Shown: in pieces, positions 39,487 through 45,638 of the stretch
Layout of the letters: every line of letters starts with the position of its first letter
How positions within the stretch are numbered: position 1 is the first letter of the stretch
Source: Bigelowiella natans CCMP2755
Lineage: Eukaryota; Protista; Cercozoa
Direction of reading: 5' to 3'
Length of the DNA stretch: 64,000 nt
Assembly: GCA_000320545.1 (NCBI GenBank)
Contig: ADNK01002960.1
Location: 1-64,000 of the forward strand
Notes under the pieces: generated by a model
Database searches by the model: none
Told to the model about the DNA's origin: nothing
Seen by the model: only the letters and a program-made list of their open reading frames with translations
Position numbers and translations under genes: made by a program

Positions 39487-42400
39487 GTGTCCAATGACAC
39501 AATGAAAAGTTTTTTGAAAAAATTCAGAAAGTTTAGTTCTCTTCAAAAAAAGAACTTGCAAAAGCTTTTCACTAAAATTGAAAACAAAGAGATGAAAAAT
39601 GGTCATGGATGCAACATTGACACCAACCGATCAGTTGAGATTGGTGGTAGAACTTGCAATGAATTGAATGTCAAAGGTTCACCTTTTGAAGTTGTGAATG
39701 GCAGTCTCAATTCTTTTGGAAACCTCAACGAAAGCCAACTGAAAAAAACACATCGCACAATTTGTGGTGGAACCAATGCAAGTTGCACAATTTTTGTTCA
39801 TCGCAAGGTGGATGAAGAAAGAAAACATGCTGTCAATGAATTCAATCATGAAGGACTGAGATTGGCAAGTGTGATGACTGTCAATGGTGTGGTTTTGAAA
39901 AAAACTACTCAAGCATTTGGAAATGCCATTAGTAGATTTGTCAAAATCAAATCAAAATCATTTGATGGACAAATTTGTGGAGTGTCAATGAGAAACCAAA
40001 ACATGGCTGAGGAAATGCAACACCCATCTTTTGATTGTTCTCATCACATCAAAATCATTCACAATGGATCTTGTGGTTCTGAATCACCAAGTGATCATGA
40101 TGTTGGTCAAATTGTGGTGAAAGATGACAATGACAATGTGGCCATGAATTGCAAATGCCTCAAACATGAAATTAACCAAGATGCCAAAACTTTTGGTGAC
40201 CCATTCCATCAACCTGAAAAATGCAAAAGAGAAAATTCTTGCATGTTCAATGCCATTGTGAACTCATGTGAAAAATCATTTGAAAAATTTGGGCACAAAA
40301 ATCTCACTCATGATGCTCTTTGTGACATTGTGGGAAAAAAAGAAAAAAAAAAGGATGATGCCATCACATTGGCAGAGATCAAAAAGTTTTTTGAGAAACA
40401 CAAATTGGGGCCAACCGTTTGCGACAACGTGCACAATTTGGTTGATGAGTTTGCACCTGAGAAACACAATGAGCACATCTCACCACGAAACTTTGGAGTT
40501 GTGGTTCATGACAATCATGCTTGTTTGCTCAATCACCAAATCAAAGAATTGGAACAGAAAAAAAAAGAAGTGGAACACGTTGAATGCACATTGCAAGCAC
40601 ATGACAAATGCAAATTTGGATCAATGGATGAAGAAAAAAGTAATTGTTTCAAATTCATTGAAAACCTCAATGACATCGCATCTCACATTGAAACAGTGAA
40701 TGATGAATGGATCAAATGTTTTCATTGTGGCGATGTGAGGGAATTGTTGATTGAAATGATTGATGTTCACAAGTGCGAACCAAGAATGTTTTTTCAACAC
40801 AACAGAACACTTTCTTTGTCATTCAGAATTGGCAACAAACCATGTGTTGTGTCTCATCCTGACTGTGACAATGTGAATGACATCATCACTTGTGATGTGA
40901 ATGAAAATGACTGTGAAAATTTTGTGAAAGCAGATGATGACTTCCATCAAAAAATTGTCAAAAAAGAACACATGAGCATTTTCAACGATGAAGCATCAAG
41001 AATGAATGAAGCACATCCTGAAGGACCTGCTGTGGGAAGACCAAGTGATGATGCTGTTGGAAATGGCATTGATGTCAACAAATGTCACACTTGGGCTTCA
41101 AAATCAATCTCTCGAATTCCCATTTTTCATCATTTTGATGATCATGTTGAACATGATGATCATTCTGTGGAAGACCTTGCAATGTGTGTTGCAATGAGTT
41201 CAGATGGAGTTGAAGCTCACAATGTCTTGTCACCTGAAAGATGCAACAGAGCATGTGGATTTGAATTGAAACAAACGAATGAAAGTGGTCACGATGCACT
41301 GCACTGCATTGGACCTTCCAATGTTGCTGCTGTTGAATTTAGCAAAGCAGTTGATGAACTGTGTGAAACAGAACTTGGAACCATCAATGCTGACAAATTC
41401 ACACGTGACAAAATCACAGGACAGCTTGAGAAGAAATGCAATCATGAATCAGTGTGTGAAATTTGCAAAAATTTGAATGAAGCAAACCATCACAAGAAAT
41501 CATTTGGCGGCGAAATTGACCCCATCAGTGATGATCCATTCTCACTTGTGAGAACCACTGAAAAACTGGCAAGAGAAACATTCAAACCCATCAAAGATGT
41601 GACACATGATCTTGTTTCCATTGAGATGTTTGATTCATGTGACAAATGTTCATCTGCAGGATTGCATCCCATGGCTGTTGAAACTGATTGTGTCATTGTG
41701 AGAGATGAAGTTGATGAGATTGAACCTCACTTTGATTTTGACAAAGACATTGGTGGTGTGAAATTGGAGGAAAAAACTAAGGTCATGGATCAACACTTCA
41801 TTCCTTTGGAAAATGAAGTGGTAGAACCTGAAACAATTGACATTGACAAGATTGACATTGTGAATGAATGGAATGCAGAAGAAATCACAAACGCATTTGA
41901 CAAGCATGATGGAACTCTTGTGAATGCTTCACTACCTGGTAGTGGCAAGAGTTGTTCAGTCAAAAAATGCAAAGGTAAAAAAATCTTGTTCGTAGCACCG
42001 TTCAATGAATCATGCCAAAATGTTCGTGAGAGCGGACACGATGCCATCACTTGTCATGGATCATTTAGCCTTGACATTCACAACAACGAATGTGAACACA
42101 TGAGAAAATTTGATATTTCACCATGTGATGTCATGTGCTTTGATGAGGTTTACATGTGTTCACTACATCAACTATCAAAAATTAAGTTATTTGTGGATAA
42201 GCATGTTGATAAAAAATTCATTGCTACTGGTGATTTAGCTCAATTGGATCCCATTGAAAACGAATGTCTGTTTAACAACATCAAAGACCTTGATGTTTGA
42301 ACAACTGAAGCTATGAATGACATGTTCCCTAATCAAATCACTCTTAAAATCTGTAAGAGAGCAAAAACAGACGAGGAAAGAAACACTCTTGCACGATTAA

Positions 42401-42942
42401 AACAAGAAATATTTGATGTAAAAACTGAACCATTTGATGTGCTAAAAAAACATTTTGAAGTTGTTGAAAGTATGGACAAAGTAAAGACTCTTAACAATGT
42501 TACCTTCTGCAACTTCAGATCCCGTTCAGTAGGTAAGTACATCCACGGTCTACAAAAGAAACCGAGAAAAAAGGTTTATGTAGATGGTATTTGCTACTAT
42601 GCTGGTATGGAGATTGTGTGTAAAAAATACAACAAGAAACCAAAACTACATGTGAACTGTGCTTATGAAATTGTTAAAGTAAGTAAAAAAGAATTTGTAA
42701 TACAGGATGTATGTGATATGGAAGAAATAAGAATTCCTATAGAATTAATTAGTAAGCATTTTAGATTATCACATGCCTCTACCTGTCATAGTTTCCAAGG
42801 ATTATCAGTAGATGGCCCTATCACCGTATTCGATACTAACACCTGTAGAATTAATCGCAAGTGGCTCTGGACTGCTATAACTCGTTCAACTGACCTATCA
42901 CAGATACAAATATATCGTGCGATAAAGAATGCTACAGATTAA
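39487..42942 (+). pseudogene. PolB-like DNA polymerase fused to SF1 (RecD/Pif1-like) helicase, one in-frame TGA at 42298-42300
   Basis: Pol motifs A GIDVNKCH (DxNKxY), B KFTRDKITG (KxxxNxxxG) and C AVETDC (KTD). Helicase motifs PGSGKS, CFDEVY, TGDLAQL, TCHSFQGLS, WTAITR. ORFs starting at 39487 and 42313 share a frame. Confidence 0.85.
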
Positions 42943-42950
42943 AAGAAAGT

Positions 42951-43328: not shown

Positions 43329-43574
43329 GGCATCGTGTGCCCGAAAATTTGACATTCAATGTCTTTGCCATATCAGCCACACGTGTCAGTTCTTCACCGG
43401 AGACTCTCCCCGCTGCTGGTCATTCCGGGATGAAAATGGGAGTCCCTAATCTTCGGACACTAACGGACACTAACGGGCAATACCGGAAATACTCCCGGTA
43501 ATGCTCTTTCCGGGGATTCGCCGCAACGAGAGTCTCCCGTGAAGATCTTCACACCAGACTCGAAATCAGACTCG

Positions 43575-45638
43575 ATGAAGCGTAGTGGATCTTTTGACGA
43601 GAAAAGGAAGGTAGATGAAAGAATCCCTAGAAGGAGAAGTTCGAAAGCACAGGTACTTATCCTACGAGGCTTGCGTTCGGGAGCTTAAGCTTTGATGTGT
43701 TCTCAGCGTTCTGAGGCATGGGGAAATCAGATGGACTCTATTAGCAAACAAATCGAGAAATTGAGGGATGAAAAGAACAAGTTAAACGAGCAATTGGGAA
43801 TTCTTCTGCCAGCATACGTTGAGGGAAAAATTTCTGAGGAGAAATTCGAAAACCTATCAGCCCCCCTGAAGGCGCAAATAGCTGAAACTCAAAAGGAAAT
43901 CCAGGCGAAGGAGGCAAAACTGGAGGAAACGATAAAGAAATTCGAGGAGGCAACCCAAGGTTATGAATTTTGTCAACATCTGAGGAACAATCGGTGTGCT
44001 GAGATATTTTTGCGTGTGTGCTCAGCCATGGAAATTGAGGAAAGCGGGGGGATAATTTTGACAGAAAACCCTGCCGGAGGAGACTATGCCAAAGCTCTTG
44101 TTGAAGCAGAAAAGAGAGAGGCTGGCGATGCGAAAATCTCCAAATTCCTGCCCATGGTGCTACTGACAGTGTGCACGGTATTCATCCCTGGTTTTACCGA
44201 AATTATGAAGGAAGAAGCAAAGCGCATGAAGGACAAGAAGATTGAAGGCATTCTTATATTTGGTAGAAGGTGTTTTCTTCAAGTTTTGAAGGAGTTTCGT
44301 CGACTCCGCGAGGAATACATCATCAACCGTGCAATCTTGAGAATTTGCATACTCGCAGGACAGAACGGAATTGGCAAAAGCCTGGCATTTTCCCAGATTT
44401 ACATGCGAGAAGCCTTCATCAAAGGGGAGAAGGTGGCGTTTTACTCTGTCCAAGAGGCTACAATTTACCTGTTTCGGATGGAAGGTGGGAAGTACACCTG
44501 CCAGCAAGCGAAAGTCAGAAGCAGTGATTTTTGGGAGTCAAGGGCGTGGAAAACTTTTGATGACAAATCAGCACATTTGATTATAGACCCGGCTCCAACC
44601 CAAGGTCACAAGTACTTCAAAGTACATTTAGTGGAGGCCTTCGTGGTGTACTTGACCTCTCCGAACAGCGAAATGTGCAAATTCGAATATGAGATCAGAG
44701 GTGTTACATGGAAGAGATTCTTTGTTCCGACATTTGCCATTGAGGAGTCCAAGGTGATCGCAATCGAGCTAAAAGAGAATCCGAGTGTGTTTTTGGAGAG
44801 AATGAAGAGAACCGGTGGGCAGCTGCGGGATTTCATTAGTGAAGACAGATTCAAAATTTTCGAAGGTTATCAGGATGATGCTTGGGAAGGAACAAAGAGG
44901 ACGGAACTCATACACTTCGGAGTTTTGAAAGTTTCAAGCAGAATATTTTCGGTCCAACCTTCCACTACTGATGAAACACTTCTTTACAGTGAGAAATACG
45001 TCATAGTTCCACAAAGCGAATGGATTAAAAGCAAGATATTCCAACTGTATGCAGAGAAGAATCTCCAAAATTTCACCGGATTAGATGGCGAGAAATGGTT
45101 CTTTGCTAAAATTTACAAGGGTTGCAAGCTTCCAGCCAGACGTCTCCCTAAGAAGCTAGCTGACGCTGAAAAAAAGAAAGAGAATGATGATTGGAAAGAC
45201 AAGAATCATGAGTTCCCTGCTCATTCAACTTTGAAAACTTTCTCGAACGGCATGAAAGGCCAGATAGACAAATGCCGAGCACACATCAAGAAGATAGCTG
45301 AGGATCAAAAGGCGGAACTTGCAGTGTGTCCGACAAACTATCCGGCCATCGATGGAGCAACAAACTGTCGAACACTGTATCAAGTTACGATTAGCAGCAA
45401 GAAGTCCGTCGGCAAAGCATACGTTGATGAACTGATTTCATTTGGTGCATCAAAAGCGGAGAAAGCTCGAGTATTTTTCCTTGTCCCCCAAAAAATAGTA
45501 GAATCCTTCAGCATTTCGTTTGCAAAAGACTCTAAAGATGATGCTCTCAAGCTAGCAGAGTTCTGGGTTGTTGGCATCAATTTGATTGAAATGATTGAGG
45601 ACGCACAGAAGAAGAAAAGCAAGATCACGGCTAGCTAG
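43575..45638 (+). CDS. Crinkler/RHS-like protein: coiled coil + P-loop NTPase + C-terminal restriction-endonuclease-fold domain; one intron (43653-43706)
   Basis: ILAGQNGIGKS, LIIDP, LTSPN, FVPTFAIEE, TGGQLR and NYPAIDG..YQVTIS..FFLVP. Exon 1 (43575-43652) joins in phase 0 via a 54-nt GT-AG intron. Normal Tyr/TA content. Confidence 0.8.

What the first reader, a model, noticed from the sequence alone, without database searches (positions are those of the whole stretch)
41900..43575. Hypermutation fades inside a single viral ORF on approach to an intact gene
In one reading frame the first ~880 codons have no Tyr. Unprotected TAs reappear at ~41975-42190, and the last 209 aa have 7 Tyr with normal ATA/TTA/GTA codons. 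This internal control shows that TA loss is imposed by chromosomal position rather than by viral codon usage or recoding. It suggests a protected domain extending ~1.5 kb upstream of the CRN-like gene.
Basis: partly seen in the sequence, partly recalled or inferred. Interest (0 to 1): 0.88.

Follow-up and report, generated by a model that had tools for sequence, protein, structure and literature searches.

The report
Antiviral hypermutation fades beside carried gene
In a marine alga, a 21-kb integrated virus has lost almost every TA base pair step to a recently described host mutation process, but the damage fades over about 900 bases as it nears an intact gene that the virus carries, likely because that gene's active chromatin keeps the mutator away.

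Summary
The window holds a 21-kb polinton-like virus (PLV-Bnat family, 24996-45967, 236-nt inverted repeats) of the alga Bigelowiella natans. TpA>TpG/CpA hypermutation of integrated viruses in this species was described in a 2026 preprint, so the process is known. New here is its edge. Against a near-intact sister protein the mutated share of informative TA sites in the polymerase-helicase-HNH gene is 0.98-1.0 over 40001-41750, then 0.86, 0.80, 0.69, 0.25, 0.67, 0.19, 0.15, 0, 0.14, 0 per bin. A smooth fade (midpoint about 1.2 kb before the cargo ATG) beats a single join (0 of 150 simulations reach it). The intron-bearing, polyadenylated cargo gene lies inside the element, where free relatives carry an integrase, and is unmutated; the left repeat and 200 nt of left host flank are mutated, the right repeat is not. 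94 of 108 surviving TAs sit in CTA/TAG contexts. Corrections: the frame has a stop at 42298, the tail is partly mutated, and the gene runs on to 43325. Best reading: a regional mutator excluded from chromatin around the active cargo promoter (inferred); repeated gene conversion from intact sisters is the main rival.

The parts
24796..24995 (.). Left host flank with the same TA loss (spill-over beyond the element)
   Evidence: 2 TA in 200 nt, both CTAG, none in a susceptible context; neighbouring host DNA has 30 and the right flank 45 susceptible TA per kb
24996..25231 (+). Left terminal inverted repeat (gapped match extends to 25320); mutated side
   Evidence: 99% complementary to 45732-45967; carries CA/TG at 3 sites (25006, 25285, 25297) where the right repeat keeps TA; 5 CTA/TAG-context TAs kept in both
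25300..41750 (.). Saturated zone: TA nearly absent
   Evidence: TA o/e 0.07 over 25300-41900, TG 1.78, CA 1.86; 14 susceptible TA in 25300-41700
26329..26823 (-). DUF5824 protein, Tyr-free
   Evidence: Pfam PF19141 E 1.2e-11
31756..32526 (-). Likely minor capsid protein
   Evidence: Position next to the MCP as in relatives L001/L002; no family hit of its own; inferred
32520..34286 (-). Major capsid protein of the PLV-Bnat family
   Evidence: Translation matches, by eye, the two PLV-Bnat26_9 rows seen in the supplement of PMC5499653, with Tyr replaced by His at several places
36430..37230 (-). A32-like packaging ATPase, in two frames
   Evidence: Pox_A32 E 0.0046 for 36430-36819, below the curated cut-off; the upstream piece carries a P-loop-like motif
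39026..39379 (-). Likely Zn-ribbon gene divergent from the helicase gene
   Evidence: CxxC-bearing ORF; this arrangement is described for PLV-Bnat in PMC5499653; inferred
39502..43325 (+). Protein-primed-polymerase-like + SF1B helicase + HNH gene, broken by a stop (42298-42300) and a 4-nt deletion (about 42916)
   Evidence: Colinear with P0020/P0021 (52-55% identity) and P0048 (80%); model matches phi29 polymerase (E 3e-7) and RecD/Pif1
41750..42950 (.). Fade zone of the hypermutation
   Evidence: Mutated share per 150-nt bin 0.86, 0.80, 0.69, 0.25, 0.67, 0.19, 0.15, 0; logistic midpoint 42260-42425, scale 184-211 nt
41870..42910 (-). Antisense RNA cover (probably from sister copies), with a break at 42895 at a minus-strand TAG acceptor-like site
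   Evidence: Run X21 minus-strand depth 1.2, 0.98, 6.46 against at most 0.25 in the ten bins upstream; 15 reads with a loose end at 42895; P0050, P0054, P0058 diverge at the same place; site read
43326..43574 (.). Likely promoter region of the cargo gene
   Evidence: 43331-43688 has GC 0.49 and CpG o/e 1.1 against 0.39 and 0.28 in the viral core; one CA at 43357 where sister contigs have TA; promoter role inferred
43575..45638 (+). Cargo gene: coiled coil + P-loop NTPase-like + C-terminal domain, two GT-AG introns (43653-43730, 43960-44025), unmutated
   Evidence: Named B. natans model P0066 is 100% identical over the aligned part; 15 of 16 family-majority Tyr columns are Tyr, one Phe, none His/Cys; poly(A) tails at 45725 in 40 reads
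45732..45967 (-). Right terminal inverted repeat; unmutated side
   Evidence: Keeps TA at the site where the left repeat has CA

Best explanation
This integrated polinton-like virus has been mutated TA>TG/CA to saturation, and the mutation load falls smoothly to zero across the last 1.5 kb of its polymerase-helicase gene, likely because a regional host mutator is kept out of the active chromatin around the promoter of the cargo gene carried at the element's right end. Steps: (1) shown: the copy had TA throughout and was mutated on both strands about equally (36 Tyr>Cys, 33 Tyr>His); (2) shown: the mutated domain does not follow the element's limits, spilling about 200 nt into host DNA on the left and stopping about 3-4 kb inside on the right; (3) shown: the dose falls gradually, and the slowest contexts (CTA/TAG) reappear first; (4) shown at family level: the cargo is spliced and polyadenylated, and antisense RNA covers the fade zone; (5) inferred: the mutator acts on silent chromatin and is excluded by transcription or open chromatin spreading about 1.2-1.8 kb from the cargo promoter; (6) inferred from the 2026 preprint: the chemistry is adenine deamination in DNA by an ADAT2-like enzyme, with G placed at the next replication.
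For: 162 of 246 amino-acid differences to P0048 are explained by one TA>TG/CA change, against 17 by the same transitions in other contexts. 38 of the 40 best-supported differences listed (40 of 253 shown) are sites where other copies have TA. Fade beats one step by 5.7-6.0 log-likelihood units with equal parameter number; 0 of 150 step simulations reach it; a trend remains beyond the best step (p 0.001). In 41701-42100, 6 of 7 TAs are in slow contexts, 15 per kb against 5.7 per kb in the core. Multi-copy contigs differ from the window at 10 of 148 (42588-42735), 2 of 238, 8 of 197 and 0 of 183 nt (43114-43296). Cargo Tyr intact; repeat asymmetry; left-flank spill. Loose ends of diverged copies at 42919, 43018 and 43221 hold 0, 0 and 1 TA where the window holds 4, 1 and 4, so the gene end is mutable in other copies. 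P0048 shows the same polarity: 10 of 42 conserved Tyr changed before residue 800, 0 of 15 after (p 0.034). The 655-nt tandem repeats at 1-3000 are not purged (TA o/e 0.93), so repetition alone is not the trigger.
Against: No chromatin, methylation or accessibility data were seen, and no copy known to lack the cargo could be read, so the causal link is untested. The decline is patchy (0.25 then 0.67; 2 then 8 differences), and a two-step model fits raw TA density about as well as the fade, as a mosaic of conversion tracts would. With slow-context sites removed the advantage of the fade shrinks to 2.5 units. Six of the ten changed Tyr in P0048 carry the same residue as the window and may be inherited, so that replicate is weak; the His at 43035 is shared with P0039 and P0064. 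The antisense reads are few (about 6% of the run was read) and look like sister-copy RNA: 6 of 6 reads at 42540 carry the sister allele and the loose letters at 42895 are not in this window. At 6 of the 40 listed sites (42153, 42158, 42193, 42266, 42659, 43357) no X1 contig shows the window's letter. One cargo difference (Ala for family Val at 45321) could be a TA>CA change.
Confidence: 0.6

Rival explanations
1. Repeated gene conversion or recombination from intact sister copies overwrote the right end in tracts of different length, and later mutation added scattered hits, giving a mosaic that looks like a fade.
For: Several sister copies are nearly identical to the window in the tail (depth 409-505 against about 70-95 for single-copy contigs); summed sister depth rises from about 440 to 750-1190 from 41870 on; the decline is patchy; a two-step model is not excluded.
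Against: Mutated and intact sites interleave over about 900 nt; one join is rejected; lesions not seen in most sisters (the stop at 42298, the deletion at 42916) lie inside the supposedly overwritten part; slow contexts reappear first; the left-flank spill is not explained.
Confidence: 0.22
2. The mutator has no positional limit, but acts in long patches; cells in which a patch reached the cargo gene or its promoter were removed by selection, leaving a fading edge.
For: Cargo is intact, spliced and expressed at family level, and the family occurs in other chlorarachniophytes.
Against: The cargo has several paralogs in the same species (summed depth 600-1500 against 95), which weakens selection on one copy; the helicase tail is already dead by stop and frameshift yet protected.
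Confidence: 0.1
3. The window is a misassembled join between a mutated and an unmutated copy.
For: No listed contig spans the whole transition, and at 6 of 40 listed sites run X1 shows only the other letter.
Against: Single-copy contigs identical to the window cover 41091-41772 and 41759-41991, into the start of the fade, and 45927-48800 across the right end; there is no single breakpoint; both inverted repeats are present.
Confidence: 0.05
4. The virus itself avoids TA and Tyr in its polymerase domain (codon usage or recoding).
For: None found.
Against: P0020, P0021 and P0048 have 5-7% Tyr along the whole protein; free relative L002 has 32-50 TA per 500 nt along the gene; sister copies have TA at the same sites.
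Confidence: 0.01

Closest known systems
TpA hypermutation of integrated viral DNA in Bigelowiella natans (bioRxiv 10.64898/2026.01.13.699255)
   Same: Same species by named gene models, same change (TpA>TpG/CpA on both strands), viral target, and TA-poor clusters elsewhere in the genome.
   Different: The text reports two regions still rich in TA (NCLDV rho 0.45, virophage region 9.2% TpA); this copy is saturated (rho 0.07). The words boundary, gradient, Polinton, flank and context do not occur in its main text. Figures and supplements were not seen and may hold a wider motif or list this region among the 124 clusters.
PLV-Bnat polinton-like viruses (PMC5499653; first called transpovirons by Blanc et al. 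2015, not held)
   Same: MCP matches PLV-Bnat26_9; A32 ATPase; polymerase-SF1 helicase-HNH fusion; divergent Zn-ribbon gene; terminal inverted repeats.
   Different: This copy is hypermutated and broken, and carries an intron-bearing cargo gene after the helicase, where four free relatives carry an rve integrase. The passages read do not mention the cargo; the genome maps (figures) were not seen.
Repeat-induced point mutation (RIP) of fungi (recalled; compared in the preprint)
   Same: Works like it: host-driven, dinucleotide-specific, regional mutation of parasitic DNA that leaks a little into flanks.
   Different: Opposite chemistry (A>G at TpA, not C>T at CpA); removes stop codons rather than making them; tandem repeats in this window are spared; the preprint reports a single-copy target.
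CR (Crinkler-RHS) NTPase + REase proteins (passages of PMC5289972)
   Same: P-loop NTPase-like middle part; weak RHSP matches in two homologs (E 0.81 and 0.028); link to mobile elements.
   Different: N-terminus is a plain coiled coil; no CR family or REase match was obtained.

Membership tests
B. natans TpA hypermutation | Changes are A>G / T>C at TpA | tested here: met
   38 of 40 listed differences; 162 against 17 explained residues
B. natans TpA hypermutation | Target of viral origin in a chlorarachniophyte nucleus | tested here: met
   PLV genes; named B. natans models for cargo and sisters
B. natans TpA hypermutation | Raised de novo rate (about 6e-7 per site per generation) | not testable with these tools
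   Needs mutation-accumulation reads mapped copy by copy; the core has few targets left
B. natans TpA hypermutation | Caused by an ADAT2-like deaminase (the preprint's hypothesis) | not testable with these tools
   No genome held; enzyme untested in the preprint too
PLV-Bnat polinton-like virus | PLV-type major capsid protein | tested here: met
   32520-34286 matches the two PLV-Bnat26_9 rows seen, compared by eye
PLV-Bnat polinton-like virus | Minor capsid protein | tested here: inconclusive
   ORF in the expected place, no family hit
PLV-Bnat polinton-like virus | A32-like packaging ATPase | tested here: inconclusive
   Pox_A32 E 0.0046, 16.9 bits, under the 22.8 cut-off; gene in two frames
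PLV-Bnat polinton-like virus | pDNAP-like domain fused to SF1 helicase and HNH | tested here: met
   phi29 polymerase E 3e-7 and RecD/Pif1 matches; AAA_30/UvrD_C_2; tail aligns with homolog tails, one with a weak HNH hit, E 0.031
PLV-Bnat polinton-like virus | Terminal inverted repeats | tested here: met
   236 nt, 99%
Polinton in the strict sense | rve integrase gene | tested here: not met
   Four relatives' integrases give no hit better than E 0.49 in the window; no Pfam rve among 28 window ORFs
CR (Crinkler-RHS) protein (cargo) | P-loop NTPase domain | tested here: inconclusive
   GxxGxGKS motif in the sequence; 11 of 19 members match nSTAND_NTPase5, best E 0.0055; best fold rows are P-loop ATPases, none under E 0.001
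CR (Crinkler-RHS) protein (cargo) | C-terminal REase domain | tested here: inconclusive
   Confident alpha/beta model for about residues 450-620, but the coiled coil filled the fold lists; the domain was not searched alone
CR (Crinkler-RHS) protein (cargo) | Ubiquitin-like CR N-terminal domain | tested here: not met
   Residues 2-84 of the folded part form two long helices at pLDDT 80-90; the 26-residue first exon was not folded
RIP | C>T at CpA in repeated DNA | tested here: not met
   CA is enriched (1.86) and TA lost (0.07)

The most novel reading that the evidence does not exclude
PLV-Bnat elements carry a host-style, spliced gene in the slot where relatives keep their integrase, and it works as an anti-mutator shield: its promoter, firing also in antisense over the helicase tail, opens a domain that spares the helicase-HNH end and the right terminal repeat from the host's TA mutator, so cargo-bearing copies outlast others. 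The same data give the mutator a 4-letter preference (CTAA, CTAC, CTAG spared) that can fingerprint the enzyme.
Probability: 0.15. Interest if true: 0.85.

Novelty: new variant of a known kind. Interest (0 to 1): 0.55.

Why it matters
The preprint leaves open how the B. natans mutator finds its targets and what stops it. A fade inside one gene of uniform origin, together with spill-over into host DNA at the other end, says that targeting is regional rather than by sequence or by the element's ends. A multi-copy family with intact, lightly mutated and saturated members makes that directly testable with existing genome and RNA data. The CTA/TAG sparing gives a biochemical signature to test on the candidate deaminase. 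If the cargo shields the element, it is a new kind of counter-defence against genome-editing immunity.

Tried and rejected
No whole genome is held, so sister copies could not be read as DNA. Viral-contig scans with the tail and with P0021 found no relative; the alignment found 1 locus and the metagenome scan 16, all distant (29-42% identity). The representative search was never run; the Atlas gave no answer. Earlier scan notes: nothing by place, words or sequence. No target-site duplication was evident by eye at the repeat ends. Which strand's A is slowed in CTA/TAG sites stayed unresolved: trinucleotide ratios and Tyr fates point different ways. Base-level protection by 6mA at ApT was considered and set aside: survivors in 41901-42400 include TTAA, GTAA and TTAC, which have no ApT at the target A, and only 6 of 21 are ATA/TAT contexts. 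Fold searches did not place the cargo in a known family. Sister gene models that cover only the tail (P0038, P0039, P0049, P0051-P0053) keep their Tyr, but gene callers favour such stretches, so they were not counted as replicates. Searches for methylation or chromatin data in chlorarachniophytes gave nothing usable. Blanc et al. 2015 is not held.
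Full report
What is there. A 236-nt inverted repeat pair at 24996-25231 and 45732-45967 (99%) bounds a 21-kb element. Its genes are those of the PLV-Bnat polinton-like viruses: the major capsid ORF matches the PLV-Bnat26_9 rows in the supplement of PMC5499653, there is a weak A32 ATPase hit, and the gene in question, 39502-43325, is a phi29-like polymerase domain fused to an SF1B helicase and an HNH-type tail, the fusion described in that paper. The 'intact gene' lies inside the repeats. A named Bigelowiella natans gene model (P0066) is 100% identical to it over the aligned part, starts at 43575 and has two GT-AG introns; of its 19 homologs, those whose names give an organism are from Bigelowiella or Lotharella. 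The host is therefore a chlorarachniophyte alga, B. natans or a near-identical strain. In four free relatives the gene after the helicase is an rve integrase; none is detectable in the window. Named sister models show the helicase tail next to a cargo paralog on two other scaffolds (consecutive model numbers for P0064/P0015 and P0038/P0007), so the cargo slot is likely family-wide.

The observation. The first Tyr is codon 884; the last 209 codons have 7 Tyr and ordinary ATA/TTA/GTA use. TA o/e goes from 0.05 to 0.42 to 0.94. Three corrections: a TGA at 42298 splits the frame, where two sister contigs and the sister proteins have an Arg codon; a 4-nt deletion near 42916 cuts off the HNH tail; and the tail is partly mutated.

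It is mutation, not codon usage. Environmental homologs P0020 and P0021 (52-55% identity) and the B. natans sister P0048 (80%) have Tyr throughout. Where a homolog has Tyr and the window has Tyr, His or Cys, 0 of 61 sites are kept up to 42150 and 10 of 18 after it; 18 and 7 further sites with other residues were left out. His and Cys are equally frequent (33 and 36), so both strands were hit. Against P0048, 162 of 246 differences in 1254 aligned residues are one TA>TG/CA step; the same transitions in other contexts explain 17. In DNA run X1, 38 of the 40 best-supported differences over 41700-43400 (40 of 253 shown) are sites where other copies have TA. Some copies have CA where the window has TG, and the reverse, so copies were mutated independently.

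Shape of the edge. The mutated share of informative sites is 0.83 in the first 500 nt, 0.98-1.0 over 40001-41750, then 0.86, 0.80, 0.69, 0.25, 0.67, 0.19, 0.15, 0, 0.14, 0 in bins of 150-200 nt (266 sites). A logistic fade to zero fits better than the best single step by 5.7-6.0 log-likelihood units with three parameters each; 0 of 150 simulations under the step reach this. With slow-context sites removed the margin is 2.5. The midpoint is 42260-42425 and the scale 184-211 nt, that is about 0.8-0.9 kb from 90% to 10%, centred about 1.2 kb before the cargo ATG. On raw TA density a two-step model fits about as well as the fade, so a mosaic of several tracts is not excluded. The cargo has 15 of 16 family-majority Tyr intact and none changed to His or Cys; one Val>Ala could be a TA change.

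The domain ignores the element's limits. The only difference in the first 229 nt of the two repeats is TA (right) against CA (left), and two more such sites follow in the gapped extension. The 200 nt of host DNA left of the element have no susceptible TA, while the right flank has 45 per kb. The gene end is mutable in other copies: loose ends of diverged contigs at 42919, 43018 and 43221 hold 0, 0 and 1 TA where the window holds 4, 1 and 4; whether those copies lack a cargo is unknown. P0048 has 10 of 42 conserved Tyr changed before residue 800 and 0 of 15 after (p 0.034), but six changes are shared with the window and may be inherited.

Sequence preference. 94 of 108 surviving TAs in 25300-41700 are CTAA/TTAG, CTAC/GTAG or CTAG, against 13.5% of TAs in 16 free relatives (L003 left out as chimeric-looking). 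Four other TA-poor patches of the window show the same (86 of 101). CTAT/ATAG is not spared. In the fade, these slow sites come back first (6 of 7 TAs in 41701-42100), as a falling dose predicts.

Expression. In RNA run X21 (about 6% read, 60-nt reads) the first mate reads the sense strand, judged by the minus-strand host ORF at 47295-48644 and the poly(A) tails at 45725. The cargo family is transcribed. The viral gene has almost no reads up to 41869, then minus-strand (antisense) depth of 1.2, 0.98 and 6.46 over 41870-42910, with 15 reads breaking at 42895, where the minus strand reads as a T-rich TAG acceptor and where three other proteins, two from transcriptomes, also diverge. These reads look like sister-copy RNA, and reads from intact sisters may lie less well on the mutated part, so this is a lead only: the antisense cover coincides with the protected zone.

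How it most likely works. Shown: in-place, two-strand TA mutation; a domain that overshoots on the left and fades on the right; an intact expressed cargo. Inferred: a mutator confined to silent chromatin and excluded from the region around the cargo promoter (confidence 0.6). Taken from the preprint, where it is a hypothesis: adenine deamination by an ADAT2-like enzyme. An error-prone polymerase with a WA preference is an alternative chemistry (recalled, not tested). Main rival: repeated conversion from intact sisters (0.22); then selection on the cargo (0.1) and misassembly (0.05).

Comparison with print. bioRxiv 10.64898/2026.01.13.699255 (read: parts 1-4 of 5 of the text; figures and supplements not seen) describes the process in this species and 124 TA-poor clusters; its text has no boundary, gradient, flank, context or Polinton. 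PMC5499653 (passages and two supplement rows) defines the element family. PMC5289972 (passages) gives the CR architecture. Ten searches listed no other paper on this mutator or on its edges. The unseen supplements could already hold the wider motif or this locus.

Verdict. Real, and a new variant of a known kind: known process, known virus family, with an edge, a sequence preference and a cargo slot that the texts read do not describe. Interest 0.55.

Noticed in passing
window 12200-14800, 17600-18950, 52600-53550, 55000-55800 (and weaker 62000-62900): Further TA-purged patches with the same CTA/TAG sparing (86 of 101 survivors, mostly CTAG), GC about 0.5, no long ORF or viral hit in the first four; edges look sharper (about 200 nt) than the viral fade. 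Two of them flank the methyltransferase ORF at 53866-54636, which keeps its TAs.
   Followed up: partly
window 1-3000: Four to five tandem units of about 655 nt (80-99% alike) are not TA-purged (o/e 0.93), though 24 of 59 transitions between units fall in a TA context.
   Followed up: partly
window 41022-45545: Two DNA runs hold a single-copy contig that joins 41022 to 45545, a likely deletion derivative lacking the helicase and most of the cargo; a candidate for the cargo-free test.
   Followed up: no
window 45687-46033: Summed contig depth at the right repeat is about 90 times that of the flank in run X1, against 5-15 times inside the element, so repeat-bearing derivatives may far outnumber full copies.
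   Followed up: no
window 25300-41900: CpG is also depleted in the element (o/e 0.28; 0.58-1.15 in free relatives), more than the gain of C and G may explain; possibly cytosine methylation of the silent part.
   Followed up: no
window 42153-43357: At six listed sites run X1 shows only the TA allele; either short contigs were filtered out or the window's strain gained these changes recently, which would mean the fade zone is still mutating.
   Followed up: no
window 47295-48644 (-) and 53866-54636 (+): Long intron-free host ORFs in an intron-rich region; the first has no Pfam hit and is transcribed, the second matches LCM methyltransferase (E 2e-29).
   Followed up: no
L001 60-8279: A free relative pairs the polymerase-helicase fusion with Sputnik-type major and minor capsid proteins (Pfam E 1e-37 and 1e-6), i.e. 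a virophage-type capsid module.
   Followed up: no
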